Positions 18,457-56,867 of a stretch of 57,986 nucleotides of DNA are shown piece by piece; the first letter of the stretch is position 1, and the number at the start of each line of letters is the position of its first letter. The stretch is from Desulfobacteraceae bacterium (lineage in GTDB: Bacteria; Desulfobacterota; Desulfobacteria; Desulfobacterales; JAABSP01): NCBI GenBank assembly GCA_011390135.1, contig JAABSZ010000005.1:1-57986 (forward strand). Reading direction: 5' to 3'. The notes beneath the pieces are model-generated. The model did no database searches and had not been told where the DNA came from. It worked only from the letters and a program-made list of their open reading frames with translations. The position numbers and the translations under genes are program-made.

Positions 18457-18471
18457 AGAAGGGAGAAAGAC

Positions 18472-18555: not shown

Positions 18556-19437
18556 TTAAAAATAGTAGTGGATGCCGATCCCGAGGCTTTCGATGTCCCG
18601 CTCGTAGAACTGCCCGTGAGGAGAGTTCCCGGTATAGTATTCGATCATGATCTGAAACCTGCCCCCGGCATCCCCTTCCTGCCCTTCGAACTGCAAGCCC
18701 CCCCGGATCGAGATATCCGAATCCCAGTCGTTCTCCTCCCACTTTTGGATATCTACCCCGATGAGGGGCCGGACATGGCCGCCAATCCAGGTCTGCGGGC
18801 TTCTCAACTCCAGGCCGTACTGGAGGGATGCCGGTTCCAGGTCATCGGGCTCATGGCGGATCAGGTATCCGCCGCCGCCGTACACCCGCAGCCATTTCCA
18901 AGGCTCATAGGAGAGCTTCAGATCGAGGGCCTCATAACTGAGATTGACCCGATCCACCCGGTTTCTCAGAAGATACTCATCTCCGAGATGGGAACTCTGA
19001 TGGAAGATCCGGAAGATGGTTGAAAAGCCGTCCCACCGGCAACTGAAGGGAAATCCGACCCAGTAGTCCGCATTGACCAGATCATTGGAGTCGGCATCGA
19101 GATTGAAGATGGCAAATACCCCGGCCTGGATGTTCAACTGCCACAGGCCGTTTAAAAAATTGTCTCCCCGAAAGATGCCGAAGGTCTCCCCGAAGCTCGT
19201 GGCCCCGACGCTCTCCAGTTCCTCGTCATCCATATAATATTGGTAGCTGGCCGAAAAATGGGGCCATCGGGGATCCGCTATCAGAGGGGAGAAGAGCCTT
19301 TTTCCCGGAATGACCGCGGACGGCTCCCCTCCCCTCCCTCTTTCAATCTCTTCGGTCTCCGCTCCGCTCGCTGCGGAAAATAACACCAGAAAAAACACCA
19401 ACATCCAGCATCCGCTCTTCAAGCTCAATCTCCTCAT
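18556..19437 (-). CDS. Outer-membrane beta-barrel protein, DUF1207-like
   Basis: Signal peptide, PLIADPRWPHF motif, alternating beta-strand pattern and C-terminal ..GIHYYF aromatic terminus. AGGAGAGAGG RBS present. Confidence 0.6.
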   Translation of the reverse strand: MRRLSLKSGCWMLVFFLVLFSAASGAETEEIERGRGGEPSAVIPGKRLFSPLIADPRWPHFSASYQYYMDDEELESVGATSFGETFGIFRGDNFLNGLWQLNIQAGVFAIFNLDADSNDLVNADYWVGFPFSCRWDGFSTIFRIFHQSSHLGDEYLLRNRVDRVNLSYEALDLKLSYEPWKWLRVYGGGGYLIRHEPDDLEPASLQYGLELRSPQTWIGGHVRPLIGVDIQKWEENDWDSDISIRGGLQFEGQEGDAGGRFQIMIEYYTGNSPHGQFYERDIESLGIGIHYYF

Positions 19438-19651
19438 AACCTCTCTCCTTTTTAAATATTTTTACGGTTCTGCCTTCACCTTCATCCTCTCTATTTTTAC
19501 GCCACTCGGCCCGGGAAAGCAAACATTTGCGGGATTCATCCGGTTTCGACACGCTTTCTTTTTCAGATAAAATATGTTTAAATAGGGGGAATGGCAGAGA
19601 AATGGAGAAATATCCACCAACACCATCCAAAAGGGAAGAAGGAGAGAAGCC

Positions 19652-20539
19652 ATGATCGTATCCATCGGAGAAATCCTCTTTGATCGGTTTCCGAATGGAA
19701 AACGGATGGGCGGGGCCCCCTTCAATTTTGCCTTCCATACCCATGCGCTTGGGTTTGAAACCCGATTTATCAGCCGCGTGGGCAAGGAGAGCAACGGAGA
19801 GGAGATCCTCTCATTTTTAAAGGCGAATGGATTCGACGCAGAGTACATTCAGATGGATGAGGATCACAAAACCGGCGAAGTGATCGTGACCGTAAAGCCC
19901 GACGGCAGCGCATCCTTCGACATCGTCCGGGATGTGGCCTATGATCACATCACTTACTCCCCGGATCTCTCCCGGATGCTTTCCCGGGCCGATCTCATAT
20001 ATTACGGCACATTGATCCAGCGAACCGATCACGGATTCCAAAACGTCCGGAAGATGCTGGCAGATCGGGGGGAGAAGACCCGGACCCTCTACGATGTCAA
20101 CCTGCGGCCCGATTGCTATAACCGCAAGATTATCGAAGCCTCCCTGGACCAGTGCCATATCCTCAAGCTCAACGATGAGGAGCTGCCGGTCATTCGTGGG
20201 CTGCTCTCCTTTGGCCGCGGGGATGACTCGTTTATCGAACATCTTTTTGGAAATTATCCCATCGAGATGATCTGTCTCACCCGCGGCGGGGCCGGCAGCC
20301 GCCTCTATACCGAAAGCGAGAGGGTCGAGGCCGAGCCGGAAAAGGATCTGAAGATTGTGGATACGGTGGGCGCGGGCGACGCATTTACCTCGGTTCTGGC
20401 CATCGGAATTCTAAAGGGGTGGCCCCCGAAAAAGACGCTGGAGACCGCCACCCGGTTCGCCGGCAAAATCTGCAGGATTCAGGGAGCGATTCCCGAGTCA
20501 CAGGATTTCTATCGGGATTTTTCCTCCATCTTTTCATAA
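19652..20539 (+). CDS. PfkB-family carbohydrate kinase, fructokinase-like
   Basis: IVSIGEILFDRFP..GGAPFNFA at the N-terminus and DTVGAGDAFTS near the C-terminus (PfkB signatures). It lies immediately upstream of sucrose synthase. Confidence 0.85.
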   Translation: MIVSIGEILFDRFPNGKRMGGAPFNFAFHTHALGFETRFISRVGKESNGEEILSFLKANGFDAEYIQMDEDHKTGEVIVTVKPDGSASFDIVRDVAYDHITYSPDLSRMLSRADLIYYGTLIQRTDHGFQNVRKMLADRGEKTRTLYDVNLRPDCYNRKIIEASLDQCHILKLNDEELPVIRGLLSFGRGDDSFIEHLFGNYPIEMICLTRGGAGSRLYTESERVEAEPEKDLKIVDTVGAGDAFTSVLAIGILKGWPPKKTLETATRFAGKICRIQGAIPESQDFYRDFSSIFS

Positions 20540-20567
20540 TCCAAAGAACGACAAAAAAGGGTTTTTT

Positions 20568-22973
20568 ATGCAAGGTCTTTTAGAGAGCATCATCCCCAAT
20601 GATGAGAAAAGGGATTTCAAAGAGTTCATCTCCATGCTCACCCAGCAGGAGAAGAAACTACTGCTGCGAAACGATATCATACTTGCATTTGAACGATTCT
20701 GCGACTCCCAGGGCAAGGAAGAATCCTATAAAACCGCATCCGCGACCGTTCGCTTTTTGAACAAGGTACAGGATCTTTTTATCCTGGAATCCTACACCGT
20801 CATCTCCTATCGACACGCGCTGGCGCGCTATCGGCTCCTGATGCTTCGAAATGACGCGGAATATATGGAGGAGATCTCGACGGATCAGTACCTCGAGTTC
20901 AAGGATCGCTATTTCGGCGGAGGATCTGCAGAGGATCGGATGCGCCATCTGCACCTCGACTTCAAGCCCTTTTACGATTTCTCCCCCTCCATCCGGGACC
21001 CGAAGAAGCTGGGCAACGGCATCCGTTTTTTAAGCCGCTATCTCTGCAGCAACATCTTCCAGCATCCCCGGGAGTGGAAGCGCAAAAGCTTCGACTTCAT
21101 CAAGCTCCACAAGTACAACGGGACACAATTGCTTATCAACGGGGAGATCATCGAAAATTTCAGGCACTGTCTGAACGAGATCGAGAAGATGATCGCCCGC
21201 CTCGAAACCCTGCCGGCCGAAACACCTTACAAGGAGGTGGCTTCGGACATGAAAAAAGCCGGGTTCGAGCCGGGCTGGGGAAACAGTGTGGGCCGGATCG
21301 TCGAGAGCATGGAGATGCTCAAGGAACTGATCGACGAGCCCACGGATGTGATGCTGGAAAGCTTCCTCTCCCGGGTGACGCTGCCGCTGATCTCCAAGAT
21401 AGCGATCCTCTCTCCCCACGGCTGGTTCGGCCAGGAGAACGTACTGGGAAAGCCGGATACCGGGGGGCAGGTGATCTATATCCTGGATCAGGTCCGGGCT
21501 CTGGAGAAGTATCTGGAAAAGGAGATCGCCCTAACGGGCCTCGACATCAAACCCCAGATCATCGTCCTGACCCGGCTCATTCCCGATGCCGGAAACACCT
21601 CCTGCGATCAGCGAAAGGAGAAGATCCACGGCACCGAGAATGCATGGATTGTCAGAATCCCGTTTAGGGATCAAAACCAGAACGTGATCCGCCACTGGAT
21701 CTCCCGCTTCAAGATATGGCCATACCTGGAGCGGTTTGCCGGCGATGCCGAGACCGAACTGATGCACACCTTTCAGGGAAGGCCCGATCTGATCATCGGC
21801 AACTATTCGGACGGCAATCTGGTGGCCACTCTCCTTTCCGACAAGATGAATGTGATCCAATGCACCATCGCCCACGCGCTGGAGAAATCGAAATACCTTT
21901 TTTCGGACCTCTACTGGCAGGATATGGAGAGGGAGTACAACTTTTCCATTCAGTTTACAGCAGACATGCTGGCCATGAACAAGTCCGACTTCATCATCAC
22001 CAGCACCACACAGGAGATTGTGGGAACCGAATACGAGATGGGGCAGTACGAGTCCTACCAGTTCTTCACCATGCCCCAGCTCTATCAGGTGGTGAGCGGC
22101 GTCAATCTCTTCGCGCCCAAGTTCAATGTCATTCCGCCTGGTGTGGATCAGCAGATCTATTTCCCCTATACGGCTGCGGATCAGCGGATTCAGCACCAGA
22201 CCCGGAAATGGGAGGGCCGCCTCTTTACGGAGAGTTCTGATGAGATCTACGGAGAACTGGATGCGCCCGAGAAGCCGCCGATCTTCACCATGGCCCGCTT
22301 TGACAAAATCAAAAACATCACCGGGCTCATCCAAGCCTTTGGCATGAGCCGGAAACTGCGGGAGAAGTACAACCTCGTCTTTGCGGCCGGAACCATCCAT
22401 CTGGATGAATCCCAGGACGAGGAGGAGCGGGAGCAGATCCGCCAGGCCTATGCTCTGATCGACCAGTATCAGCTTCAGGGAAGCCTCCGGTGGCTGCCGA
22501 GCATTCCCAAGCTGGAGACCGGAGAGGCCTATCGTGTAATTGCAGACCGCAAAGGCTTTTTTGTCCAGCCGGCTCTTTTCGAAGCCTTCGGCCTCACCAT
22601 TCTTGAGGCGATGGCCTCGGGGCTTGTCACCTTTGCCACCCATTTCGGCGGGCCCAGGGAGATCATCCGGGATGGTCAGGACGGCTTTCTGATCAATACC
22701 AGTGAACCCCAGCTCATCGCAGCGGCCATTGAAGGATTTGCCGACCGGGAGGAGAAAAATCCCGATCTCTGGAAGGAGATTTCAGAAAAGGGCATCGAGC
22801 GGGTCCGGGAGAGCTTCACCTGGAGCCTCTACAGCGAGCGGCTCATCAATCTGGCGAAACTGTATGGATTCTGGCGGTTTAGCGTCTCGGCAGAGGGAAA
22901 GAAGAAGATGGACAGGTACTGCGAATTCATCTATCATTTTCTCTACAAAGAGCGGGCCGAACAGCTTGAATAG
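20568..22973 (+). CDS. Sucrose synthase (GT4, EC 2.4.1.13-type)
   Basis: 801 aa with long colinear blocks typical of plant and cyanobacterial SuS: ILSPHGWFGQENVLGKPDTGGQVIYILDQVRALE, WISRFKIWPYLE, PDLIIGNYSDGNLVATLL, CTIAHALEKSKY, QFTADMLAMNKSDFIITST, FTMARFDKIKNITGL, QPALFEAFGLTILEAMASGL.TFAT..GGP.EII. Confidence 0.93.
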   Translation: MQGLLESIIPNDEKRDFKEFISMLTQQEKKLLLRNDIILAFERFCDSQGKEESYKTASATVRFLNKVQDLFILESYTVISYRHALARYRLLMLRNDAEYMEEISTDQYLEFKDRYFGGGSAEDRMRHLHLDFKPFYDFSPSIRDPKKLGNGIRFLSRYLCSNIFQHPREWKRKSFDFIKLHKYNGTQLLINGEIIENFRHCLNEIEKMIARLETLPAETPYKEVASDMKKAGFEPGWGNSVGRIVESMEMLKELIDEPTDVMLESFLSRVTLPLISKIAILSPHGWFGQENVLGKPDTGGQVIYILDQVRALEKYLEKEIALTGLDIKPQIIVLTRLIPDAGNTSCDQRKEKIHGTENAWIVRIPFRDQNQNVIRHWISRFKIWPYLERFAGDAETELMHTFQGRPDLIIGNYSDGNLVATLLSDKMNVIQCTIAHALEKSKYLFSDLYWQDMEREYNFSIQFTADMLAMNKSDFIITSTTQEIVGTEYEMGQYESYQFFTMPQLYQVVSGVNLFAPKFNVIPPGVDQQIYFPYTAADQRIQHQTRKWEGRLFTESSDEIYGELDAPEKPPIFTMARFDKIKNITGLIQAFGMSRKLREKYNLVFAAGTIHLDESQDEEEREQIRQAYALIDQYQLQGSLRWLPSIPKLETGEAYRVIADRKGFFVQPALFEAFGLTILEAMASGLVTFATHFGGPREIIRDGQDGFLINTSEPQLIAAAIEGFADREEKNPDLWKEISEKGIERVRESFTWSLYSERLINLAKLYGFWRFSVSAEGKKKMDRYCEFIYHFLYKERAEQLE

Positions 22974-23153
22974 ATCTGAATATTAGTGAACAGAATGGGG
23001 TCTCCACTCTTCTAAAATAGGGTCTTTACCCAATTTCAAAAGAGGCTCTTTATGCCTTATGATAGGATTGCATTTTCAGGCTTTTTCCTTTTTGAATCCT
23101 ATTCGGGGAAAATGGGAAATGGCTTGAAACAGACCCGACGGACAGGAGGAATC

Positions 23154-23348
23154 ATGTTAAAAGAGAATACCGAAGAGAAGCAAAATCAGAAGAAGCGAGA
23201 CCAAGAGGTCACCGATAAGGCCGACAAGAAATCGACCGAAGGGATCGACTACTGCATCAACCCCGGAAACCCCGAAGCGATCCGGAACGACCAGGATGAG
23301 GAAGCCTGCGACCAGGGGCGGGGGGGAACATTTGACGAAAAGCTATAA
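23154..23348 (+). CDS. Small highly charged protein (64 aa), unknown function
   Basis: AGGAGG lies 5 nt upstream of the ATG at 23154 and the start is in frame with track ORF 23052..23348. No family recognised. Confidence 0.5.
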   Translation: MLKENTEEKQNQKKRDQEVTDKADKKSTEGIDYCINPGNPEAIRNDQDEEACDQGRGGTFDEKL

Positions 23349-23380
23349 GCCGTTTCAACCCAAACCATGAGGAGGACCCG

Positions 23381-23608
23381 ATGAACAGCCCACAGAAGAC
23401 CATCGTAACCCGGGAGCTGATGAGCAGCATGAATGAAGGGTGTGCCGCCTGTGGAAAGCCGTTTGAAATGGGCGAGACCGTTGTCATGGCCTGCGGCGCA
23501 TGGGGGGATAATCCCAAGTTCGTTCATGAGAAAGAGGCTGTCTATGATAAGGGTCAGGGCCGGTATGTGGAGCAGGGATGCCATGAGGCCGGCCGGGGCG
23601 GAATCTGA
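23381..23608 (+). CDS. Small Cys-containing protein (75 aa), unknown function
   Basis: GAGGAGG RBS upstream. Contains a CAACG..MACG.. motif. It is co-directional with the flanking genes. Confidence 0.6.
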   Translation: MNSPQKTIVTRELMSSMNEGCAACGKPFEMGETVVMACGAWGDNPKFVHEKEAVYDKGQGRYVEQGCHEAGRGGI

Positions 23609-23619
23609 TTCCGCCGGCC

Positions 23620-24588
23620 ATGCCATTTCCACCTGATGCATTTCCATCCGGCAGGCTTCTGCTGGAGACCGATCAGATCGACTGTTATGACAGTTCCGGC
23701 CTTCCCGTCCCCTGTCCGGGGACGGGTCAGGACGGTGAAACAAAAAGGCAGGATCAGAAGAGCCCGGAGAAAAGCTCCCGTTTTAGACCGGCCGGCCAGG
23801 CCGTTCTGGATCGACACACGGGCCTGATCTGGAGCCGAAATGCTTCGCCGGCCGAATTTCCCCTCTCATGGAGCGAATCCTTTGCCTATATCGAAGAGAT
23901 GAACCGCTCGGAAGCATCCGATTTGGAAGCATCCGATTATGAGGACTGGCGTCTTCCCACCCGGCCGGAACTCTTCTCCTTGGTCAGCCACAGTTGTATC
24001 AATCCCAGCCTTCGGCTCGATCATCCCTTTGAAGAGGTCTTCACCGGATACTACTGGACCGCAACGTCCTGTGCGAGATTGCCGGATCAGGCCTGGTATG
24101 TCCATTTCGGCGGCGGGAGGGTCTTCAAGGGAATGAAGCACGGCTCCTATATGCTCTGGCCCGTGCGGGGAAAAGGCTTTCCCTCTCGGGAGATCTCCTT
24201 TCGATTTACGATTTCGGAAAATGAAGATACCGCGGCCGATCAGTATACGGGGCTGGTCTGGGCAAGGGATGGGGATCTTGCAAAGGGCGAAGTCGATTGG
24301 CAGGATGCCCTCGATTATGTCTTGGAGATGAACCGGCAAAACGCGATGGGCCATTCGGACTGGCGACTGCCCAACATCCGGGAGATGGAGAGCATCACCG
24401 ATCTTCGATACCATTCCCCGGCCATCTCCGAAGGCCATCCATTCCAAAATGTCCGGGAGGATTACTGGTCATCCACCACAAGCTTCTACGATCCCGCGTA
24501 TGCATGGGTTATCTATCTGAGAGACGGCCCCGTTGGCGTGGGATACAAGCCGAATGCGCAGTTTCATCTCTGGCCCGTGCGGGGATAG
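23620..24588 (+). CDS. DUF1566 (Lcl C-terminal/lectin-like) domain protein, two domain copies
   Basis: TDQIDCYDSSGLPVPCPGTGQDG N-terminal motif. Two copies of DWRLP...E(L/M)..(L/I).. ..YW(T/S).T......AW.V......V......K......LWPVRG. Confidence 0.8.
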   Translation: MPFPPDAFPSGRLLLETDQIDCYDSSGLPVPCPGTGQDGETKRQDQKSPEKSSRFRPAGQAVLDRHTGLIWSRNASPAEFPLSWSESFAYIEEMNRSEASDLEASDYEDWRLPTRPELFSLVSHSCINPSLRLDHPFEEVFTGYYWTATSCARLPDQAWYVHFGGGRVFKGMKHGSYMLWPVRGKGFPSREISFRFTISENEDTAADQYTGLVWARDGDLAKGEVDWQDALDYVLEMNRQNAMGHSDWRLPNIREMESITDLRYHSPAISEGHPFQNVREDYWSSTTSFYDPAYAWVIYLRDGPVGVGYKPNAQFHLWPVRG

Positions 24589-24609
24589 ATTGAGAGCAAA
24601 ATGGAGGCA

Positions 24610-24647
24610 AAGGGACATAAAGGACAAAAAGGACGTAAAGGACCGAA
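24610..24647 (+). repeat. Four tandem ~9-bp units, (a/t)AAAGGAC(n)
   Basis: aaagggacat/aaaggacaa/aaaggacgt/aaaggaccg begins 22 nt after the DUF1566 stop. Further GGA motifs occur at 24603 and 24672. Confidence 0.8.
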
Positions 24648-24997
24648 TAAACGTCAGAGGCAAAAGCGTCCGGAAGGTATGCGCTGTAGATCAGTTCAAA
24701 AGTATAAACAGGTTTTATCTGTTTAAATGTTAGTCGCTTATAGAACAATTTCTGTTTTTGAACTCACCGGATTCAAAATTTTGAACCATAGGGTTGCCGA
24801 TTTAACCATTTGATATTTGATATTTAAAATCCGATGCGGCCATTTCCCGTTAAAATTAATGAACTATTCCCCTTCTCAGTTTCAGGATATTTCCAGAAAA
24901 TGGGAGGGCATCTGCAACGATTAAAATTCATTAACTCATTTATATCTTTAGCATATACCATCTATCCCGCAAATAATTTCCATCTGCAGAGAATAAC

Positions 24998-25013
24998 TGG
25001 CAAGGCTCTTGCA
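24998..25013 (+). promoter_or_regulatory. Sigma-54 (-24/-12) promoter
   Basis: TGGCAAGGCTCTTGCA against the consensus TGGCACG-N4-TTGCW: correct GG/GC spacing with one mismatch. It lies in an AT-rich intergenic island next to a sigma-54 enhancer-binding protein gene. Confidence 0.6.
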
Positions 25014-25023
25014 TATTGTAAGA

Positions 25024-25097
25024 GCAGACCTAATAATTTCTTCATCTTTTTTCCTTCTTTTTAAGGCCAGTCGGAGCGGTTCCGGCTGGCCTTAAAT
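25024..25097 (+). ncRNA. Candidate sigma-54-dependent small RNA (~75 nt)
   Basis: The region between the predicted TSS (~12 nt after the -12 GC) and the strong hairpin at 25063..25093 has no ORF or RBS. It contains a CU-rich stretch (uucuucaucuuuuuuccuucuuuuu). This is purely predicted. Confidence 0.35.
25063..25093. terminator. Hairpin shared by the candidate sRNA (+) and the convergent regulator gene (-)
   Basis: AAGGCCAGTCGG-agcggtt-CCGGCTGGCCTT, a 12-bp stem with one G-U pair. It lies 9 nt beyond the regulator stop codon. The U-tracts are weak (UUAAAUGAUUU on +, UUAAAAAG on -). Confidence 0.5.
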
Positions 25098-25101
25098 GAT
25101 T

Positions 25102-26496
25102 TCAGGCCTTAAATTCCTCCTTGTGGAGATCGTACCGGAGCATCAGCTTGTGGAGCTGTCGGGTGCTGATCCCGGCCTCCTGCGCGGATTTATTGACCCT
25201 TCCCCGGTTCCGGGCCAGAACATCCTTCAGATACTGCCGCTCAAAGGCTTCGACCGCGATCCGCCGGGCCTCGGAGAGAGGGAGATCCGAATCTACCGGC
25301 AGCACAGCCCTTCCCGATTCCCCCTCGAAGATCTCGGCCGGAAAGCTGTCCGGCGTCAGCACCGTATCATCCTCCAGAATACAGGCCCGCTCCAGCAGAT
25401 TCTCCAGCTCCCGGATGTTGCCGGGCCAGGAATACTGGCGCATGGCCTCCATCACATCAGGATGGACTCCTTTGAATTTCTTCCGGAATTTTGCCTTCAT
25501 CTTGTTGAGGAGCACATCGAGGAGAAAGGGGAGATCCTCGATCCGGTCCCGCAACGGCGGAAGTTCAATGGGAAAAATGTTGAGCCTGTAATAGAGATCC
25601 TTCCGGAAGAGCCCCTCCCGACTCATCTCCTTGAGATCGGTATTGGTGGCCGCGATGATCCTCGCATCGGTCTCGATGGGCTCATCTCCGCCCACCCGGT
25701 AGAAGATGCTGTCCTGGAGCACCTGGAGGAGTTTGATCTGGGCCGACGGCGGAACCGTTCCGATCTCGTCCAGGAAAATGGTCCCGCTTTTGGCGATCTC
25801 AAATTTGCCCGGCTTTCTCCGGATCGCGCCCGTAAAAGCCCCCTTTTCATGGCCGAAGAGTTCGCTCTCCAGAAGGGTCTCGGGAACTGCGCCGCAGTGG
25901 ACGCTGATGAACTGTGCATTCTCCCGACGGCTGTGACGATGGATCAGCCGGGCCATCACCCCTTTGCCGGTTCCGGTCTCGCCGACAAGAAGCACCGTGC
26001 TGTCGGTAGGCGCTACGGACCGGATCTTCTCAAAGACCTTCTGCATGGCTCGGTTCCGGGTATGCACCACATCATCCGCGTCCGACTTCCAGAAATGATC
26101 CCGGAGATAGTCGAGTTCCGAGCGGAGGATATGGTTGGCCATGACGCTTTCAGAGACATGGGAGATCTCGTCCGGCTGCAGGGGGTAGAGGAGATAGCCG
26201 CTCGCACCGGCATTTACCGTCATCAGCGCATCTTTGGTCTTGTCCCTCGGCGCCATCACGATGATCCGCAGTGTGGGATAGAGATCCAAAAAGGGCTGGA
26301 TCGCCTTCCCGTGCTGATGGCTCTCCCGCAGACAGGCTTCGATATCCACGAAAAGCAGATCGAACCTCCGCTTATGAAGGATCTCCAGTGCATTCTCGAT
26401 ATTCTGGGCATGGGCTATACGATCCTTTTTGGCAAAAGCGGATCGCAGGGTCCCAAAGGCCTCATCTTTATCTGAAATGATCAGAACAGACTTCAT
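25102..26496 (-). CDS. Sigma-54-dependent response regulator (REC + AAA+ + Fis-type HTH; NtrC family)
   Basis: REC domain (VLIISDKDE..DLLFVDIE). AAA+ domain with GETGTGKG, ESELFGHEKGAFTGA (GAFTGA loop) and GTIFLDEI. C-terminal HTH AQEAGISTRQLHKLM. No cognate kinase is adjacent. Confidence 0.93.
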   Translation of the reverse strand: MKSVLIISDKDEAFGTLRSAFAKKDRIAHAQNIENALEILHKRRFDLLFVDIEACLRESHQHGKAIQPFLDLYPTLRIIVMAPRDKTKDALMTVNAGASGYLLYPLQPDEISHVSESVMANHILRSELDYLRDHFWKSDADDVVHTRNRAMQKVFEKIRSVAPTDSTVLLVGETGTGKGVMARLIHRHSRRENAQFISVHCGAVPETLLESELFGHEKGAFTGAIRRKPGKFEIAKSGTIFLDEIGTVPPSAQIKLLQVLQDSIFYRVGGDEPIETDARIIAATNTDLKEMSREGLFRKDLYYRLNIFPIELPPLRDRIEDLPFLLDVLLNKMKAKFRKKFKGVHPDVMEAMRQYSWPGNIRELENLLERACILEDDTVLTPDSFPAEIFEGESGRAVLPVDSDLPLSEARRIAVEAFERQYLKDVLARNRGRVNKSAQEAGISTRQLHKLMLRYDLHKEEFKA

Positions 26497-28089: not shown

Positions 28090-28167
28090 AATCCTAGTGG
28101 ATCTTCTTCACCCCTTCATCAGGATCTCCTGAAGCCGATCTCGATCGGCGCAGACAGGATCGAGAAT

Positions 28168-28740
28168 CTAAAACAGCTTCTTCATCAACCAGGCCATATT
28201 CTCCCCCAGTCTCCGCATGGTCCCCATCCCCTCCGCATCCTTTTCCACATCGCCCTTGTTCAAACCGAATCCCATATTCCAGTAGTCGGCTCCGGGAATG
28301 ATCATCTGGCTGATGGTGAAGAAGTGGTTGATGGAATCAAAGGCATGGATGCTGCCCCCTCTGCGGGCCACGACCACGGCTGCGCCCACCTTGCGTTTGA
28401 ACATGTCGCTGTTGGCCTTGGCCACCAGGCCGGAACGGTCGATCAAGGCCTTCAGCTCGGTGCTGATATCGGCAAAATAGGTGGGAGAGGCCAGAAGGAT
28501 TCCCTCTGCCGCAACCATCTTTTCAATGCACTCGTTGGCAAAGTCATTGGTGACCGCACACCGTTGATCTTTGTTCTCCATGCACTTGTAGCAGGCGATG
28601 CAGCCGTGGATCTTCTTTCCGGAGAGCTGGATGAATTCGGTTTCAATGCCGGCCTTTTCGATCTCGGCCAGGGCTGTTCTCACCATCGATGCGGTATTTC
28701 CGTCTTTGCGGGCACTGCCGCTGAATGCCACAACCTTCAT
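28168..28740 (-). CDS. Iron-sulfur flavoprotein / NADPH-dependent FMN reductase family protein
   Basis: MKVVAFSGSARKDGNT flavodoxin-like start plus the compact CIACYKCMENKDQRC (CX2CX2CX7C) motif typical of Isf proteins. AGGAGG RBS present. Confidence 0.8.
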   Translation of the reverse strand: MKVVAFSGSARKDGNTASMVRTALAEIEKAGIETEFIQLSGKKIHGCIACYKCMENKDQRCAVTNDFANECIEKMVAAEGILLASPTYFADISTELKALIDRSGLVAKANSDMFKRKVGAAVVVARRGGSIHAFDSINHFFTISQMIIPGADYWNMGFGLNKGDVEKDAEGMGTMRRLGENMAWLMKKLF

Positions 28741-28866
28741 GGATGTACCTCCTTTTTTTTTGGATTATTGTCCATCTTTTCACCGATAGATAACATGGCT
28801 GGCGCAGAACTTCAACCCATTGAGAAAATCCGGAGGAGGGTTATCAAACCGGAGGAGGGGCATGGA

Positions 28867-28901
28867 AAAGGTCTCCGGCATCAATTGCCGGAGACCTTTT
28901 T
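28867..28901. terminator. Bidirectional intrinsic terminator
   Basis: AAAA-GGTCTCCGGCA-tcaat-TGCCGGAGACC-TTTTT, an 11-bp perfect stem with A and T runs on both sides. It is downstream of the FmdB-like gene. Confidence 0.75.
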
Positions 28902-28988
28902 GCAGGCGAGACGCTTTTACAGGCGAGGCGCTGTCATTACCAGCACCGGAATGAACCCAAATCGTTTCCGCTGACAAAGGGTTCCGTG

Positions 28989-31015: not shown

Positions 31016-34000
31016 CTAGTTCCTCTGGGCGCCGAGCATCTGCCGATGAAGCCGCTCGGCCCTGAGGCAGAAGGTCTCCAGTTTCGCGTTGACCAGTTGC
31101 GGAAAGGGCGATCCGTCGGTTTCGATGGCGAAAAAGGGCAGATCGTCGAAATGGGTCAGGGTGGCGCGAAGCCGATCATCCCCGGGATCGGTGGAGAGTT
31201 TCCGCTCCTTGACCATCGAGGTTGCCAGAATCGATTCCGACAGCCGGTTGGGCATACAGCCAAAAGGGCCGATAGCGATCACGCCGCAGACATCTGTTGC
31301 GATCTCCGCAAGGGATGCACCCACCGTCAGCACCGCCTCCCCTGTCAGATTCACGCCGATGTCCGGGCTGGCATTTTGGATGATCTTTTCGATATCCACG
31401 GGATGGAAATCGATCAATCCTGATTCGGCCAGAATCGACTTCAACCGCCGCTCACTTCTGGACATATACCGCTTTTTCAGAATGCCTTTGAGCGCCTTCA
31501 ACGGCGTGACCTTCCCCCCGCAGATCCCGTTGTAGTAGAGATAATCGCAGTAGAGCACCCACTCCGCGATGGGGGAACAGGTCACTGCAAACCCCTTCTC
31601 CGCAAGCTTTTCCGTGAGATACTGTCGGGAAAGGCCATCTCTTCTCACATAGATCTCTCCGGTGAGCGCAACCTTGGGAACCGCGTCCACGGGCCGGCTC
31701 AGAGGAATCTCCTTCAGGCGGGCAGCGGATTTCCTGGCAATGGCCGAGATCTCCTCAAAGCCGCCGTACTGAATGCCGAAGAGGATCTCCTCCCACTCCT
31801 GGTCCAGAAGCGAAACAGCGCCACCCGGATCGACAGCATTGGCCAGCAGCATCGCGCGCATGTCCTCCATCGCATCCGACAGAAGGACGGCCCACCAGGC
31901 CCGCCGCTCGAACGCGGCGCTCATCCCGGAGTAGGAGTCTTCTCCGCTCAAGGAGAAGAAGGCCACATCCGGGATCTGGTGCCGCTTGATCAGCTCCTGC
32001 ATGAAGATGGAGTACTGGCCGAAGCGGCAGGGGCCCGAGGCCGTGGCCATGAAATATACCAGCACCTCATCCGGCTTTTTCCGGTTCCGGATGAAGTCGA
32101 GGAGTCCTCCCGTGGTGAGCTGCAGCGGGAGGCACTCCTTGCAGGTGGTGTTGGCCCGGCCCAGCTTCAGCACGGCCTCATCCGCAGGGGCCAGATGCAC
32201 CGCATTGACCCCTTCCGCGCGGAAGACCGCGGTGATGGCCTCTGTGGAATAGCGGCCCATAGAGGGGGTGAGAAAGACCACCCGCGGGTCCGTAAAGGCC
32301 AGTTTCTCACCGGAGGAGGCGATCACCTTGATTCTGCCATCTTCCCGAACCGTCTCTGCCGGAACAAAGCCGTTCTCCCGGACCGGGGGAAGCCGGTCTG
32401 CGGCCTGCTGCTGCCGGTATGCGGCCACCACATCGAGAAATGCCTCGATTCTCGTCTCCAGACCCGCGTCCGCGGTGTGGCTGTCCAGCTCCAGGGTCAG
32501 GGCAGGCTTTCTGCCCATCAGATTTCTGAAATAGGTGATGATAAATGAGTCAGGGCCGCAGGAAAAGTTTGTGATATAGACCCCGAATAGCTGGGGATGG
32601 CGTTCGGCCAGGGCCGCGGCCTTCATGATGGTCTGCCCCAGGCCCCAGTACATGTGGCCCATGAGTGGTTCCTCTTCATAGGGAAGGAAATCCATGGGGA
32701 TCACCATCACCCCCCGGGAGGCGAGCTTTCTCGGGATGCCCATGTGGGCCTCCTCGGCAAAGCCGCTGTAAGGCCGGGCAAAGATCACGGCCGCGATCCG
32801 CTCCGGATCGGCCTCAAGCTCTGCCAGCGCCTCTTTTCCCATCCTCTTCATCCGTTCGACAGCCTCGGCCTGCGCGGCAATGGCCTTATCGACCGCGGCA
32901 TTGGCCTTTTGGGCATCCACCCCCATCTCGGCCGCAGCCGAAACCAAGGGCTTTCGGATCGTGTGCAGCCCCTTTGTCAGATCAATGAGGGGCGAGATCA
33001 CCGCAGTCCCAACTCCTTTTAACCGGTCCAGTTCCGCCTTGAAGGTGGTCTTGAGATAGAAGGTCTCCCCCTGCACAAGAGGACAGACCTGTGCGTTGCA
33101 ATCTTCAATCTGGGTGGGAACCGCCTTGAAATGGGGCAGGAAGAGATACTCGGGGGGGCTCTCTTCTGCGATCAGTGCATGGAAAAAGCCGTGGGCCAGC
33201 TCTGCGGGAAAGCAAAAAGGCGCGTTGCGCCGGTCAATACCCGCTTCGGAAGGCTCGTCCGGAATCACCGGTTCAAAGCCGATCTCGGAGAAGAAGGTCG
33301 CATACAGGGGAAAGTAGGTGTTGACCAGAAAGCTCCGGTTGAAGCCGATCCGGGGCCGCGGACTCTTCTCCGGAAGCTTTTCCGAAAGGATTTTCGGTAG
33401 GCTTTCCGGCTTTTTCGCCTCCGCTTCGAAGACGATCCGCTGGCGGGCCCCCACCAGATCGAGCTTGATGATGTCGTACCGGATGTTCCGGCGGAGGTTG
33501 TAATACCGATTGCATGCGCCGCCAAAGGGGTACTTCTTCCCTTCCAGGTCGATGACCGCGATCTCGCAGTGGCGGTCGCACCGCTCCTTTCCGCCCTTGC
33601 AGGTGAAGGATTTCCCGTACTTCACATCCCGGTCGATAAGGGTCTGCAGGTCGAAGCGTCCGGCCTCCATCAGCCCCGCGTCGATCCGCTTCTCCACTTC
33701 GAGTGCCACCCCGAACGCGCCCATCAGCCCCGGCTCCGGCGGCACCACAATGGGCTTTCCGAGGATCGAGGCCATGGCCAGGGGAACGGCCCGGTTGTAG
33801 CATACCCCGCCCTGCATGAAGATCTTCTCCCCCACGGGACGGTTCCCCTTGACCCGGTTGCAGTAGTTCATGGATATGGAGTAGACCAATCCTGCCACCA
33901 CGTCGTTCTGTCGCACCCCGTCATGGATCGCGGTCTTGATGTCCGAAGAGATGAAGGCCGCGCACTGGTCGTTGAAGTTGGGAGGACGCTCCCCTTTGAC

Positions 34001-35413
34001 CGCGATCTCCGCGATCCCCTCCATGGGAATGCCGAGGGTCTCCAGGGCCGACTCCTCCAGAAAGGAGCCCGTGCCGGCCGAGCAGGCCTCGTTCATGGCA
34101 TAGTCCGACGGAACCCCGTTGGTGATGTAGGTATATTTGGCATCCTGCCCCCCGATCTCCAGGATCGTATCCACCTCGGGATCAAAATAGACCGCTGCGG
34201 CCGCGTGCGCGATGATCTCGTTAATGACGCCGTCGGTGAGCCCGTGGAGCCCCGCGATCTGCCGCCCCGATCCGCAGACCCCCAGCCCGATGATTTCGAT
34301 CGTCTCCGGATCGATTTTCTCCTTCACCTGATCGAGGATGCTCCGGTAGCACTCCCGGGATGCCCCCACCGGGTTGCCGTTGGTCTTGAGATAGACCGAC
34401 GCGAGGATCGCACTCTCTTTCGTTCGCATCAGCACGGCCTTTGTGGTGGTGGAGCCGACATCGAGCCCCAGGATGCAGACGTCTCCTTCTGCGACCTCCC
34501 CTTTTGCGATATCCTTGAACGCGACCGCGTCCTCGAAGTCGGAGAGGCGGGGCAGAGTGTCGAAGGTGGCAGCGTCCGGCAGGAAGAGTTTTGCGCTGTC
34601 GTCCGAGGTAAAAGGCCGGGTCTCGTTGGTGAGAGCCCAGAGCGCTGCCCCGAGTGCCTCGAAATAGGGCGCCTCCGCGGGAACGATCAGCCCCGGGATC
34701 TCCTCTTCGAGATAGCGGACCATCACCGGGTTGCGCACCGTACCGCCGGTGATCATGACATTTCGCTTCTCCACATTCTTCAACAGCTCTAAAATCTTGT
34801 TGGACATCATCCGGCAGAGGCCCGCGGTGACCCGCTCGATGGGAACCCCTTTATTGGTTGCATGGGTGCAGTCCGACTTGCAGAAGACCGAACAGCGGCC
34901 CGAGAGCCGGTAGGGCGAATCGGTATCTGCAAGATCCCCCACAGCCTCCACCGGCACATTGAGGCGCCGGAGCTGCTGGAGAAAGAACTCTCCGGTTCCG
35001 GATGCGCACTTGTTTCCGGTAAGCACATTTGCGATCTGGCCTGCGCCGTTGAGAACATAGGCCATGAAGGTTTCCCCGCCGGCCGAGACCACGGCCGGGC
35101 AGTCCACCCCTTCGGGCTTCACATGGCGGTAGGCATACTCCACGGCCTCGGGCTCGGAGATCTGGGAGAGGTTGACAAAATGGCGGAACCGCCGGCCCGT
35201 GACCGCGATCCGGTCGAACTGATCCGGGTTGATCTCCGCGAGTGCGTCGCTCAGGGTCTGCCGGGGATCGCCGCCGTGGGGATGGAGGGAGTGGCGGATC
35301 ACCCGAGGCCTGCCCTCTGCGGAGGGTTCGGCTCCTGCAATCCAGGGCTGCGGGGTTTCCAGTTGTACGGTTGAAATGGTCGATGCGCCGATGCAAATAC
35401 CCAATACCTTCAT
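31016..35413 (-). CDS. Giant CoA-substrate-specific enzyme activase-type protein: two BcrAD/BadFG/HgdC-like ATPase domains plus two DUF2229-like domains
   Basis: 1465 aa. Domain 1 has GICIGASTIS..CASGTGEFF..CSVFCKSDCTH. Domain 2 has LGLDVGSTTTKAVL..ACSAGTGSFLE..QCAAFISSDI (ASKHA-fold activase motifs with cluster Cys). The remainder resembles the conserved C-terminal extensions of the ~1400-aa acyl-CoA dehydratase activase-related proteins. Confidence 0.85.
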   Translation of the reverse strand: MKVLGICIGASTISTVQLETPQPWIAGAEPSAEGRPRVIRHSLHPHGGDPRQTLSDALAEINPDQFDRIAVTGRRFRHFVNLSQISEPEAVEYAYRHVKPEGVDCPAVVSAGGETFMAYVLNGAGQIANVLTGNKCASGTGEFFLQQLRRLNVPVEAVGDLADTDSPYRLSGRCSVFCKSDCTHATNKGVPIERVTAGLCRMMSNKILELLKNVEKRNVMITGGTVRNPVMVRYLEEEIPGLIVPAEAPYFEALGAALWALTNETRPFTSDDSAKLFLPDAATFDTLPRLSDFEDAVAFKDIAKGEVAEGDVCILGLDVGSTTTKAVLMRTKESAILASVYLKTNGNPVGASRECYRSILDQVKEKIDPETIEIIGLGVCGSGRQIAGLHGLTDGVINEIIAHAAAAVYFDPEVDTILEIGGQDAKYTYITNGVPSDYAMNEACSAGTGSFLEESALETLGIPMEGIAEIAVKGERPPNFNDQCAAFISSDIKTAIHDGVRQNDVVAGLVYSISMNYCNRVKGNRPVGEKIFMQGGVCYNRAVPLAMASILGKPIVVPPEPGLMGAFGVALEVEKRIDAGLMEAGRFDLQTLIDRDVKYGKSFTCKGGKERCDRHCEIAVIDLEGKKYPFGGACNRYYNLRRNIRYDIIKLDLVGARQRIVFEAEAKKPESLPKILSEKLPEKSPRPRIGFNRSFLVNTYFPLYATFFSEIGFEPVIPDEPSEAGIDRRNAPFCFPAELAHGFFHALIAEESPPEYLFLPHFKAVPTQIEDCNAQVCPLVQGETFYLKTTFKAELDRLKGVGTAVISPLIDLTKGLHTIRKPLVSAAAEMGVDAQKANAAVDKAIAAQAEAVERMKRMGKEALAELEADPERIAAVIFARPYSGFAEEAHMGIPRKLASRGVMVIPMDFLPYEEEPLMGHMYWGLGQTIMKAAALAERHPQLFGVYITNFSCGPDSFIITYFRNLMGRKPALTLELDSHTADAGLETRIEAFLDVVAAYRQQQAADRLPPVRENGFVPAETVREDGRIKVIASSGEKLAFTDPRVVFLTPSMGRYSTEAITAVFRAEGVNAVHLAPADEAVLKLGRANTTCKECLPLQLTTGGLLDFIRNRKKPDEVLVYFMATASGPCRFGQYSIFMQELIKRHQIPDVAFFSLSGEDSYSGMSAAFERRAWWAVLLSDAMEDMRAMLLANAVDPGGAVSLLDQEWEEILFGIQYGGFEEISAIARKSAARLKEIPLSRPVDAVPKVALTGEIYVRRDGLSRQYLTEKLAEKGFAVTCSPIAEWVLYCDYLYYNGICGGKVTPLKALKGILKKRYMSRSERRLKSILAESGLIDFHPVDIEKIIQNASPDIGVNLTGEAVLTVGASLAEIATDVCGVIAIGPFGCMPNRLSESILATSMVKERKLSTDPGDDRLRATLTHFDDLPFFAIETDGSPFPQLVNAKLETFCLRAERLHRQMLGAQRN

Positions 35414-35666
35414 CTTCTTCCCCTCAGTACTCTCTTTCTTATCGATAATGGCTCACAGGGCCATTTCCTTTTTACAGGAGAGAACGGTTTCGTCCCATTC
35501 ATTTCTTCTTGGGCCTCTTCTCCCGATCCGCCGATCTTCTGAAGCCGGAAGACAGGAGGAGAGATTATAGCAGATTCGGGCGGATTCGTCTGTTAAAATC
35601 CGAGCCTCTGTGATAATATCACTCCTTTACCGGTTATGCATCCGAAAACTGAAATTTTGGGGCTTA

Positions 35667-56850: not shown

Positions 56851-56867
56851 AGTACACCATCGGACGG

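What the first reader, a model, noticed from the sequence alone, without database searches (positions are those of the whole stretch)
24998..25097. Near-consensus sigma-54 promoter driving only a ~75-nt non-coding stretch that ends in a strong hairpin, next to an orphan sigma-54 activator
TGGCAAGGCTCTTGCA (24998..25013) matches TGGCACG-N4-TTGCW with correct -24/-12 spacing. By rough estimate, fewer than one such match is expected by chance in both strands of 58 kb. It points toward the 3' end of the convergent NtrC-family response-regulator gene (25102..26496), which has an intact GAFTGA loop.

Between the predicted TSS (~25024) and that gene there is no ORF or RBS. There is only a CU-rich tract (UUCUUCAUCUUUUUUCCUUCUUUUU, complementary to purine-rich SD sequences) and a 12-bp hairpin (25063..25093). 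Regulator-adjacent sigma-54-dependent sRNAs are known elsewhere, for example the Vibrio Qrr sRNAs with LuxO and Myxococcus Pxr. This locus therefore looks like a candidate EBP-plus-sRNA pair. If the hairpin does not terminate, the transcript would instead be antisense to the regulator's 3' end.
Basis: partly seen in the sequence, partly recalled or inferred. Interest (0 to 1): 0.65.

Follow-up and report, generated by a model that had tools for sequence, protein, structure and literature searches.

The report
Candidate sigma-54-driven small RNA
An uncultured sulfate-reducer relative probably makes a short sigma-54-dependent non-coding RNA whose unpaired, pyrimidine-rich front end matches the ribosome-binding region of a gene 10 kb away; this is a known kind of regulator, it is not proven here, and it is probably not controlled by the activator gene beside it.

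Summary
TGGCAAGGCTCTTGCA (24998-25013, +) is the only near-consensus sigma-54 promoter motif in the window. It has P≈0.001 by chance in this 513-bp AT-rich spacer. No + strand ORF follows it. A CU-rich tract and a 16-bp hairpin (25060-25096) lie 5 nt from the stop of an intact NtrC-type activator gene (25102-26496, -).

New support:
- The unpaired stretch 25024-25057 can form 31 pairs (-38.3 kcal/mol) with the SD-to-codon-7 region of gene 31016-35413 (-), a BcrAD/DUF2229 "CoA enzyme activase". No shuffled control reached this value, and pairing stops at the predicted start site and at the hairpin base.
- A metatranscriptome contig covers 25029-25122 and begins 5 nt after the predicted start.

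Against or unresolved:
- The hairpin has no U-tract, and the RNA contig continues at least 85 nt past it.
- The activator's relatives share a binding-site motif (TCGGAAN-N5-NTTCCGA) that is absent here.
- A sister lineage has deleted most of the activator gene yet keeps the RNA locus unchanged.
- Conservation is uninformative because identity between the lineages is mosaic.
- No strand-specific RNA data exist.

Verdict: a plausible new member of the known sigma-54-dependent sRNA class. The "EBP-plus-sRNA pair" reading is weakly supported.

The parts
24998..25013 (+). Sigma-54 promoter-like element (-24 TGGCA, -12 TTGCA)
   Evidence: Read directly. It is the only match in the window. P = 0.0013 in the shuffled 513-bp spacer. 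It is identical in the sister lineage. The one population SNP, 25005 G>C, falls in the unconstrained N4 spacer.
25022..25029 (+). Predicted transcription start zone (11-13 nt after the -12 GC gives about 25024)
   Evidence: Inferred from the usual sigma-54 spacing. The RNA contig of run X13 begins at 25029. Contiguous complementarity to the target ends at 25022-25024.
25024..25058 (+). Unstructured pyrimidine-rich 5' region, the proposed seed
   Evidence: Unpaired in both the MFE and the centroid structures. It forms 25 Watson-Crick and 6 G-U pairs with 35393-35425.
25060..25096 (.). 16-bp GC-rich stem-loop (5-nt loop, one G-U on the + strand)
   Evidence: There is no U-tract on either strand. 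It lies 5 nt from the regulator's stop codon, so it could serve either transcript.
25097..25122 (+). 3' extension present in the RNA contig; it contains a second CU-rich motif (AUUCCUCCUU) and a repeat of GGCCTTAAAT that could pair with 25060-25068 instead
   Evidence: The X13 contig matches through 25122 and then diverges. This stretch overlaps the regulator's last 6 codons and its stop.
25102..26496 (-). NtrC-family sigma-54 activator (REC-AAA+-HTH), convergent with the candidate RNA
   Evidence: Pfam hits and translation showing GAFTGA. Positions 25148-26210 are deleted in the sister lineage.
35393..35425 (-). Predicted trans target site: SD (GAGGGG), AUG and codons 2-7 of gene 31016-35413
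   Evidence: Duplex energy -38.3 kcal/mol, covering -12 to +21 relative to the AUG. It is identical in the sister lineage.
31016..35413 (-). Candidate target gene: 1465-aa BcrAD_BadFG ATPase + DUF2229 'CoA enzyme activase' fusion
   Evidence: Pfam.
24962..25045 (-). Rival feature: 27-aa minus-strand ORF (MKKLLGLLLQYARALPVILCRWKLFAG) with an AAGGA SD. The 'CU-rich tract' is the reverse complement of its SD and first codons.
   Evidence: In the sister lineage it carries only non-synonymous changes (C20F, K23N, L24F) plus a frameshift that adds about 10 codons. Coding is therefore not supported.

Best explanation
A sigma-54-dependent promoter at 24998-25013 most likely starts a non-coding RNA near 25024.

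**Proposed anatomy and action.**
- The RNA has a roughly 35-nt unstructured, pyrimidine-rich 5' arm, followed by a stable 16-bp stem-loop.
- The 5' arm is proposed to pair with the Shine-Dalgarno sequence, start codon and first seven codons of the mRNA of gene 31016-35413. That gene lies 10 kb away and encodes a large BcrAD/DUF2229 'CoA enzyme activase'. Pairing would block ribosome loading, and so translation, whenever some enhancer-binding protein switches the promoter on.
- The stem-loop probably stabilises the RNA and terminates it only partly. Some transcripts continue past it. In this genome, those transcripts run antisense into the 3' end of the neighbouring activator gene.
- The neighbouring activator is probably not the dedicated activator of this promoter.

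**Shown:** the motif, the lack of an ORF, the fold, the complementarity with its statistics, one RNA contig, and the absence of the activator family's binding-site motif.

**Inferred:** sigma-54 dependence, the strand and ends of the RNA, the repression mechanism, and the identity of the activator.
For: 1. **Motif.** It is near-consensus and unique in the window. It has P = 0.0013 in this spacer, and it sits in a genome that clearly uses sigma-54 activators.
2. **No coding frame.** No + strand ORF or RBS follows the motif.
3. **Fold.** The 5' arm is unpaired and the terminal hairpin has z = -4.7.
4. **Complementarity to the target.**
   - The duplex with the 35413 start region is -38.3 kcal/mol, against -24.7 for the next-best of 53 start regions.
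   - None of 400 dinucleotide shuffles reached it across the start regions.
   - None of 31 shuffles reached it across the whole window on both strands, where the shuffle mean was -30.9 with sd 2.0.
   - Its composition-normalised z is -4.9. The most extreme value among 53 control seeds, made from reverse complements of real start regions, is -3.0.
   - In a co-fold, the intermolecular helix survives with a net ΔΔG of -26 kcal/mol.
5. **Boundaries.** Pairing spans 25024-25057. That runs from the independently predicted start site to 2 nt before the hairpin.
6. **Wobble pattern.** All six non-Watson-Crick positions are transitions in the G-U-compatible direction. There are no A-C mismatches and no transversions.
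7. **RNA evidence.** Metatranscriptome run X13 holds a 153-nt contig matching 25029-25122 at 96% identity. It begins 5 nt after the predicted start and contains no promoter sequence.
8. **Persistence of the module.** The block is kept in three contexts: this window, the sister lineage with the regulator deleted (junction at 25147), and the X13 organism with unrelated sequence after 25122.
9. **Precedent.** Sigma-54-dependent ncRNAs are documented in Desulfovibrio vulgaris (4; PMC4641369) and D. alaskensis G20 (2; PMC4045070).
Against: - The hairpin has no U-tract.
- The RNA contig runs at least 85 nt beyond the hairpin, so a discrete ~75-nt species is not shown.
- Logan contigs carry no strand. 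The contig depth is only 3.5, DNA carry-over is possible, and the positions of its 4 mismatches are unknown.
- A second metatranscriptome (X9) has contigs on neighbouring genes but none on 24560-25260. This is uninformative for a short RNA, but it gives no support either.
- No activator binding site was recognised upstream. The -60 to -250 region is the least conserved part of the spacer, at 72-78% identity.
- The promoter has A where C or T is usual after TGGCA.
- Conservation cannot be used as evidence. Identity between the two lineages is mosaic, with perfect runs up to 504 nt, and the 110-nt perfect run here ranks only 20th.
- Both pairing partners are invariant in the sister lineage, so there is no covariation.
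- No homologue exists in Rfam or in the 179 fetched loci other than the sister lineage.
- U-rich seeds pair promiscuously with purine-rich tracts. In a whole genome, about 100 times larger than this window, comparable energies would arise by chance.
Confidence: 0.5

Rival explanations
1. The element is a cis-antisense RNA. The same sigma-54 promoter fires, but the relevant product is the read-through transcript. That transcript pairs with the 3' end of the convergent activator mRNA (or with its 3' UTR and the minus-strand small ORF) and modulates its stability. It could also act by transcriptional interference.
For: - The hairpin lacks a U-tract.
- The RNA contig extends past the hairpin through the regulator's last codons.
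- The geometry is convergent, with only 5 nt between the hairpin and the stop codon.
Against: - The sister lineage keeps the promoter-to-hairpin stretch (24988-25097) identical although the regulator gene is destroyed.
- In the X13 organism, the sequence after 25122 is unrelated to the regulator.
- This reading does not explain the 31-pair match to a distant start region.
Confidence: 0.15
2. There is no dedicated RNA. The motif is a chance or non-productive sigma-54 binding site, and the hairpin is simply the 3' stem-loop of the activator mRNA. Many sigma-54 sites mapped in E. coli and Salmonella are intragenic or oddly oriented, with no known product.
For: - Window-wide, 14% of shuffles contain such a motif.
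- No UAS was found and the upstream region is poorly conserved.
- There is no canonical terminator.
- Widespread orphan sigma-54 sites have been reported (PMC4591121, PMC3844500).
- Conservation is uninformative.
Against: - The chance of the motif in this particular spacer is 0.0013.
- An RNA contig begins 5 nt after the predicted start.
- The complementarity is bounded exactly by the predicted start site and the hairpin, with z = -4.9.
- Three independent coincidences would be needed for this reading.
Confidence: 0.2
3. The minus strand is the functional one. A 27-aa peptide (24962-25045) with a good SD is translated from the regulator's read-through transcript. It could be a small membrane peptide or type I toxin-like peptide. 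The + strand features are then just its mirror image, or an antitoxin-like antisense RNA. Alternatively, the stretch is a decayed copy of the 5' end of a BcrAD-type gene.
For: - An AAGGA lies 6 nt before the ATG, and the N-terminus MKKLLGLLL is hydrophobic.
- A 45-aa ORF follows directly, at a TAGATG junction.
- The SD and first codons resemble those of gene 31016-35413 (MK-LG), which is the same similarity that produces the duplex.
Against: - In the sister lineage, all four substitutions are non-synonymous, and a 1-nt deletion changes and lengthens the C-terminus.
- The population SNP at 25005 is also non-synonymous (Ala to Gly).
- An Arg in the middle of the hydrophobic stretch is atypical for type I toxins.
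- Similarity to the BcrAD gene stops after about 7 codons and is not collinear in frame. At the DNA level it is not significant (score 21 against a shuffle maximum of 26), whereas the RNA-level pairing is significant.
- All mismatches are G-U compatible in the + strand RNA orientation.
Confidence: 0.1
4. The adjacent orphan activator binds upstream of 24998 and is the dedicated activator of this RNA, in the manner of LuxO/Qrr1 or GlrR/GlmY.
For: - The two genes are adjacent, which is the arrangement seen for qrr1-luxO and for glmY-glrK-glrR (PMC8043402, PMC3045617).
- Members of this regulator family do activate promoters next to their own genes.
Against: - The family's UAS (TCGGAAN-N5-NTTCCGA) is conserved across relatives at 48-62% identity, and the recognition helix (S/T)TRQLHKLM is also conserved.
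- That UAS is absent from the spacer, and across the whole window its matches are at chance level.
- The orientation is opposite to that in all family loci examined.
- The regulator is deleted in a sister lineage that keeps the promoter-to-hairpin stretch identical.
Confidence: 0.2

Closest known systems
Qrr1-5 sRNAs with LuxO (Vibrio)
   Same: Both involve a sigma-54 promoter, an NtrC-type activator gene next to an sRNA gene (qrr1-luxO), a short RNA ending in a terminal hairpin, and a proposed action by pairing at translation initiation regions (PMC8043402; bioRxiv 10.1101/2021.07.01.450815).
   Different: - There is no sequence or structure match to Rfam Qrr.
- Here the geometry is convergent, not divergent.
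- No activator binding sites were found.
- The predicted pairing is one long 31-pair duplex, not a short conserved seed.
- There is a single copy and no U-tract terminator.
GlmY (and GlmZ) with GlrK/GlrR (QseE/QseF) in Enterobacteriaceae
   Same: In both cases a sigma-54-dependent sRNA gene lies directly beside the genes of its two-component activator (PMC3045617, PMC8745638).
   Different: - GlmY has three well-defined GlrR sites and an IHF site upstream, and acts as a protein decoy rather than by base pairing.
- Here no UAS was found and base pairing is predicted.
- There is no Rfam match.
Sigma-54-dependent non-coding RNAs of Desulfovibrio (D. vulgaris Hildenborough regulome; D. alaskensis G20 5' RNA-seq)
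   Same: They occur in the same phylum-level group (sulfate reducers rich in EBPs). They are unannotated short RNAs with RpoN-type promoters, and their regulators tend to occur in free-living species (PMC4641369, PMC4045070).
   Different: - Those RNAs have mapped 5' ends and conserved UAS-plus-promoter pairs across genomes.
- This one has neither, and no detectable homology to them was tested beyond Rfam.
Orphan or intragenic sigma-54 binding sites (E. coli, Salmonella)
   Same: These are also strong motif matches in positions that drive no annotated gene, sometimes antisense to a gene's 3' end (PMC4591121, PMC3844500).
   Different: This site is intergenic. It is followed by an RNA-like anatomy and a specific complementarity, and there is a matching RNA contig.

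Membership tests
Sigma-54 (RpoN) dependent promoter | GG at -24 and GC at -12 with fixed spacing, in the context TGGCAC-N5-TTGCW | tested here: met
   TGGCAAG-GCTC-TTGCA; 11 of the 12 specified positions match; it is unique in the window.
Sigma-54 (RpoN) dependent promoter | Enhancer (UAS) for an EBP about 70-200 bp upstream | tested here: inconclusive
   The neighbouring regulator's family motif is absent. Only a weak palindrome, TTCAGGA-N4-TCCAGAA, lies near -136, and it is degraded in the sister lineage. Sites for another EBP cannot be recognised.
Sigma-54 (RpoN) dependent promoter | Transcript 5' end 11-13 nt downstream of the -12 GC, dependent on rpoN and an EBP | tested here: inconclusive
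   An unstranded RNA contig begins at 25029, 17 nt after the C of the GC. Dependence on rpoN or an EBP is not testable with these tools.
Trans-acting base-pairing sRNA | Non-coding: no ORF or RBS on the transcribed strand | tested here: met
Trans-acting base-pairing sRNA | Discrete short transcript with a defined 3' end (intrinsic terminator) | tested here: not met
   A strong stem is present but there is no U-tract. The RNA contig continues at least 85 nt past the stem.
Trans-acting base-pairing sRNA | Accessible seed complementary to a target mRNA beyond chance | tested here: met
   31 pairs at -38.3 kcal/mol with the start region at 35413. None of 400 shuffles (start regions) and none of 31 shuffles (whole window) reached it. 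z = -4.9, against -3.0 at the most extreme for real start-region controls. This is computational evidence only.
Trans-acting base-pairing sRNA | Conservation or covariation of the RNA and its target site across species | tested here: inconclusive
   Only near-identical relatives exist. Both sites are invariant, and the identity background is mosaic. Intermediate relatives are not syntenic.
EBP-adjacent sRNA pair (LuxO/Qrr1, GlrR/GlmY type) | The adjacent EBP binds upstream of the sRNA promoter and is required for its activity | tested here: not met
   - The family UAS is absent.
- The EBP is deleted in the sister lineage while the RNA locus is kept.
- In most of the family loci examined, the regulator instead sits next to same-strand small protein genes.
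EBP-adjacent sRNA pair (LuxO/Qrr1, GlrR/GlmY type) | Homology to Qrr, GlmY or another curated RNA family | tested here: not met
   The Rfam gathering and E-value scans gave only spurious hairpin hits.
Type I toxin-antitoxin (small hydrophobic peptide + antisense RNA over its start region) | Conserved small hydrophobic ORF whose SD and AUG are covered by an antisense RNA | tested here: not met
   The ORF 24962-25045 is covered by the candidate RNA. However, it is not conserved as a reading frame in the sister lineage, and it has a charged residue in the middle of its hydrophobic stretch.

The most novel reading that the evidence does not exclude
The RNA is an autonomous sigma-54-driven regulatory module. 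Under this reading, it arose by capturing an antisense copy of its own target's ribosome-binding region (SD plus the first seven codons of the BcrAD/DUF2229 activase gene) between a promoter and a stem-loop. It has since been kept, with G-U-compatible drift only, independently of the neighbouring activator gene. That activator gene has been deleted at least once (junction at 25147) and possibly a second time (homology ends at 25122 in the X13 organism). This would be a bacterial example of sRNA birth by inverted partial duplication of the target.
Probability: 0.15. Interest if true: 0.65.

Novelty: new member of a known kind. Interest (0 to 1): 0.45.

Why it matters
If it is real, this would add an sRNA with a named candidate target to the poorly charted sigma-54 regulons of Desulfobacterales. 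These are major carbon and sulfur cyclers in sediments that carry dozens of orphan enhancer-binding proteins. It would also link sigma-54 signalling to a widespread but uncharacterised 'CoA enzyme activase' fusion protein, giving a handle on when that enzyme is needed.

The case also carries a methodological caution. Adjacency of a sigma-54 promoter to an activator gene does not make them a pair. Here, the binding-site motif and gene neighbourhood conserved across the activator's family point elsewhere.

Tried and rejected
- **Rfam.** The gathering and permissive scans found no family for the locus.
- **Regulator orthologues by collection scan.** Scans of genome and metagenome collections gave only relatives at 54% identity or less, because the scans rely on exact peptide words. 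An exact-protein look-up found nothing.
- **Comparative test of promoter and hairpin.** The family loci are not syntenic. In most of those examined (L001, L002, L081, L164, L167, L169, L171), UAS palindromes and small protein genes lie downstream on the same strand, and none has a convergent promoter-plus-hairpin. RlmD-based intermediate relatives (71-76% identity) have a hydrolase gene where the regulator sits here.
- **Conservation in the sister lineage.** This was rejected as evidence once the mosaic identity pattern was quantified.
- **The family's small genes.** HMMs of the two small-protein families found nothing in a six-frame translation of the window.
- **UAS search.** Window-wide matches to the family motif are at chance level, 53 observed against 43 expected.
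- **Paralogous copies of the RNA.** None were found in the window or in the 179 loci, apart from the sister lineage.
- **Minus-strand 27-aa ORF and + strand 76-aa ORF.** Both were rejected as coding because of frameshifts and non-synonymous-only changes in the sister lineage.
- **RNA run X9.** It has no contig over the locus, which is uninformative for a short RNA.
- **The 59-nt tail of the X13 RNA contig.** It matches nothing in the window or the loci.
- **An 11-nt seed match to the start region of gene 30336.** This is at chance level, with an expected count of 1.2.
Full report
**1. What is in the sequence**

The 513-bp spacer 24589-25101 lies between a DUF1566/Lcl_C gene (23620-24588, +) and a convergent NtrC-family gene (25102-26496, -). 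It is AT-rich, 35-37% G+C against about 57% in the flanks.

TGGCAAGGCTCTTGCA sits at 24998-25013 on the + strand. It has the sigma-54 GG and GC doublets at the canonical spacing, and it matches 11 of the 12 specified consensus positions.

It is the only match in the 58-kb window to TGGCA-N6-TTGCW. The expected count is 0.16, and 14 of 100 shuffles gave at least one match. It is also the only match to the full consensus with at most 1 mismatch, where 0.43 are expected. For the spacer alone, 200,000 shuffles give P = 0.0013 on either strand.

Downstream there is no + strand start codon until the ATG at 25096. That ATG opens only a shadow ORF antisense to the regulator.

An RNA starting at about 25024 would fold into a 35-nt unpaired pyrimidine-rich arm and a 16-bp stem-loop at 25060-25096. 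The MFE is -27.7 kcal/mol, z = -4.7, and 0 of 200 shuffles fold as well.

The regulator has REC, Sigma54_activat, AAA_lid_14 and HTH_8 domains, with GAFTGA and Walker A intact. Its neighbours are not kinases.

One correction is needed. The stem-loop is not a canonical terminator on either strand. The T-run precedes it on the + strand, and the 3' tails are UUAAAUGAUUU (+) and UUAAAAAGAAGG (-). A textbook A4-stem-T4 terminator does occur in this genome, at 28866-28900.

**2. Which organism, and what the regulator's relatives look like**

The regulator and the RlmD neighbour both have their best named hits in Desulfobacterales, including Desulfonema magnum and D. ishimotonii.

The regulator belongs to a very large family at 56-62% identity. 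I fetched a number of family loci.

In most of them (L001, L002, L081, L164, L167, L169, L171), the regulator gene is followed on the same strand by three things:
- palindromes of the form TCGGAAN-N5-NTTCCGA (absent from the short spacer of L167);
- a TGGCAC-N5-TTGC promoter (none matched the scan in L002 or L081);
- a small gene of 82-120 aa from one of two unannotated families, with motifs 'G-IIP--WD--GN' or 'KNPDWVW'.

The recognition helix (S/T)TRQLHKLM is conserved in the window's protein, so the same palindrome is the expected binding site.

The window contains no homologue of either small-protein family. It has no palindrome in the spacer, and window-wide matches are at chance level, 53 observed against 43 expected. 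No family locus that was examined shows a convergent promoter-plus-hairpin.

Adjacency is therefore the only link between this regulator and this promoter.

**3. A sister lineage**

DNA runs from two sediment studies hold the region. Runs X5-X8 carry a lineage at about 93-94% identity. That lineage is also a minority form in X2 and X4. In it, 1063 bp of the regulator gene (25148-26210) are deleted, which shifts the frame.

I recovered that lineage's contigs as L172-L175, through its Lcl_C protein. I then aligned them to the window.

The results by segment:
- 24988-25097, which covers promoter, arm and hairpin, is identical.
- 25098 is G>T, and the rest is identical up to the deletion junction at 25147.
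- 24771-24987 is only 72-78% identical.

This looks like selective conservation, but it is not. Across 12 kb, the two lineages are a mosaic of perfect runs (up to 504 nt) and 64-80% identical blocks. The 110-nt run here ranks only 20th. I therefore do not count conservation as evidence.

What the comparison does show:
- The RNA locus persists unchanged where the neighbouring regulator is dead.
- The minus-strand 27-aa ORF (24962-25045) is not maintained as a reading frame. The 'CU tract' is the mirror image of its SD and first codons. In the sister lineage it has C20F, K23N and L24F, no synonymous change, and a 1-nt deletion that rewrites and lengthens its end.
- The one SNP inside the motif in the window's own population (25005 G>C) falls in the unconstrained N4 spacer of the promoter. 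In the minus-strand ORF it would be Ala to Gly.

**4. A specific complementarity**

I scanned the unpaired arm (25024-25062) against the whole window with RNAduplex. Apart from its own antisense, the best site is 35393-35425 on the minus strand.

That site is the SD (GAGGGG), the AUG and codons 2-7 of gene 31016-35413. The gene encodes a 1465-aa BcrAD_BadFG + DUF2229 'CoA enzyme activase' fusion.

The duplex has 25 Watson-Crick and 6 G-U pairs, with one 3-nt and one 2-nt bulge. Its energy is -38.3 kcal/mol, and it covers -12 to +21 relative to the AUG.

Controls:
- The next-best of 53 start regions is -24.7 kcal/mol. None of 400 dinucleotide-preserving shuffles of the arm reached -38.3 on any start region; the shuffle mean was -25.5 with sd 2.5.
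- None of 31 shuffles reached it anywhere in the window on either strand; the mean was -30.9, sd 2.0 and minimum -36.1.
- The arm is the mirror image of an SD-ATG-like sequence, so I also built 53 control seeds from the reverse complements of real start regions. After normalising each by its own shuffles, their z-scores average -0.25 with sd 0.94, and the most extreme is -3.0. The candidate scores -4.9.
- In a co-fold of the 78-nt RNA with 121 nt of the mRNA, the intermolecular helix and the terminal hairpin both form, with a net ΔΔG of -26 kcal/mol.

Two further features fit a designed seed:
- Contiguous pairing stops at 25022-25024, the start site predicted independently from the promoter. 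At the other end it stops at 25057, 2 nt before the hairpin.
- All six non-Watson-Crick positions are transitions in the direction that gives G-U rather than A-C.

At the DNA level, the similarity of the minus strand to the gene's 5' end is not significant. This argues against a merely decayed duplicate. A duplicative origin of the seed nevertheless remains possible.

The target site is invariant in the sister lineage, so there is no covariation.

Two caveats apply. U-rich arms pair easily with purine-rich tracts, and a whole genome would offer about 100 times more chances for such a match.

**5. RNA evidence**

A first search found no RNA run. Later searches found two metatranscriptomes.

Run X9 has contigs at 99-100% identity on neighbouring genes (18218-23749) but none over 24560-25260. 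For a short RNA in assembled contigs, this says little.

Run X13 (marine) holds a 153-nt contig, at depth 3.5, whose first 94 nt match 25029-25122 with 4 mismatches. The remaining 59 nt are unrelated to the window or to any fetched locus.

The contig starts 5 nt after the predicted start site and contains no promoter sequence. That is what a primary transcript from this promoter would give.

The contig also runs through the hairpin and at least 85 nt beyond it. Termination there is therefore at best partial. In the X13 organism the regulator gene is not what follows.

Limits of this evidence: the contig has no strand information, its depth is low, DNA carry-over is possible, and the mismatch positions were not reported.

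**6. Interpretation**

Three independent coincidences point the same way:
- a rare motif in exactly this spacer;
- a complementarity bounded by the predicted start site and the hairpin;
- an RNA contig starting at the predicted start.

Together they favour a sigma-54-dependent non-coding RNA that represses translation of the BcrAD/DUF2229 gene. I put this at about 0.5, and lower for the specific target.

The 'pair with the neighbouring orphan regulator' reading gets about 0.2. The rival readings are:
- a read-through cis-antisense role against the regulator's 3' end (0.15);
- a non-productive sigma-54 site plus an ordinary 3' stem-loop (0.2);
- a minus-strand peptide or a gene-fragment relic (0.1).

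These readings are not all mutually exclusive.

**7. Comparison with what is known**

Sigma-54-dependent sRNAs next to their activators are well known:
- Qrr1 with LuxO (PMC8043402; 10.1101/2021.07.01.450815);
- GlmY with GlrK/GlrR (PMC3045617, PMC8745638).

Sigma-54-dependent ncRNAs have also been mapped in Desulfovibrio (PMC4641369, PMC4045070).

The present locus works like these in outline, but it is not a member of any curated RNA family. It fails the defining 'activated by the adjacent EBP through upstream sites' test, and it lacks a canonical terminator.

Orphan sigma-54 sites with no product are also common (PMC4591121, PMC3844500).

If real, this locus is a new member of a known kind. 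Interest is moderate: it offers a concrete, testable sRNA-target hypothesis in an uncultured sediment sulfate reducer, but no surprise in principle.

Noticed in passing
window 25148-26210: A sister lineage (contigs L172-L175; runs X5-X8, and a minority form in X2 and X4) carries a 1063-bp frameshifting internal deletion of the sigma-54 activator gene. Intact and deleted alleles therefore coexist in the same sediments.
   Followed up: yes
window 28092-28987: The sister lineage has only about 80 nt where the window has about 900 nt, including the FMN reductase gene 28168-28740 (-). This is a second presence/absence difference within 4 kb.
   Followed up: partly
window 24601-24726 (repeat at 24609-24644): - A 41-aa, extremely basic ORF (MEAKGHKGQKGRKGPNKRQRQKRPEG...) contains four 9-nt tandem units AAAGGACNN.
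- Depth is raised 3-4 fold in the DNA runs, and contigs differ in copy number.
- Very abundant short contigs over the repeat appear in RNA run X13.
- Between the lineages, the ORF differs by one synonymous change and one Val>Ile change.
- It may be a real small basic protein or a dispersed repeat.
   Followed up: partly
loci L001, L002, L081, L164, L167, L169, L171 (downstream of the regulator homologues): In most of the family loci examined, the regulator gene is followed on the same strand by TCGGAAN-N5-NTTCCGA palindromes, a sigma-54 promoter and small proteins without Pfam hits. There are two small-protein families, with motifs 'G-IIP--WD--GN' (82-112 aa) and 'KNPDWVW...ELILF-GW-DK' (112-120 aa). 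This appears to be an uncharacterised, widespread regulon.
   Followed up: partly
window 25088-25097 and 25105-25114: The 10-nt direct repeat GGCCTTAAAT occurs once as the 3' arm of the hairpin and once inside the regulator's last codons. The second copy can pair with 25060-25068 instead, which gives a possible alternative structure in a read-through RNA.
   Followed up: no
window 23200-24000 versus 24353-24686: Identity between the two lineages is strongly mosaic. It is 64-82% over the N-terminal half of the Lcl_C/DUF1566 gene and 100% over the next 334 nt. This suggests frequent recombination or diversifying selection on that surface-protein-like gene.
   Followed up: partly
window 56623-56853 (-): A cobalamin riboswitch (RF00174, 104.5 bits) lies upstream of minus-strand genes.
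   Followed up: no
window 19652-22973: A PfkB sugar kinase gene and a full-length sucrose synthase gene (SUS_N, EPBD and GT-B domains) lie together in what is otherwise a Desulfobacterales-like genome. The pair is conserved in the sister lineage.
   Followed up: no
window 28866-28900 and 18472-18496: There are two other strong hairpins. The first is a canonical bidirectional terminator (AAAA-stem-TTTT). The second is an 11-bp all-GC stem between convergent genes, with no U-tract. This shows that U-less 3' stem-loops do occur in this genome.
   Followed up: partly
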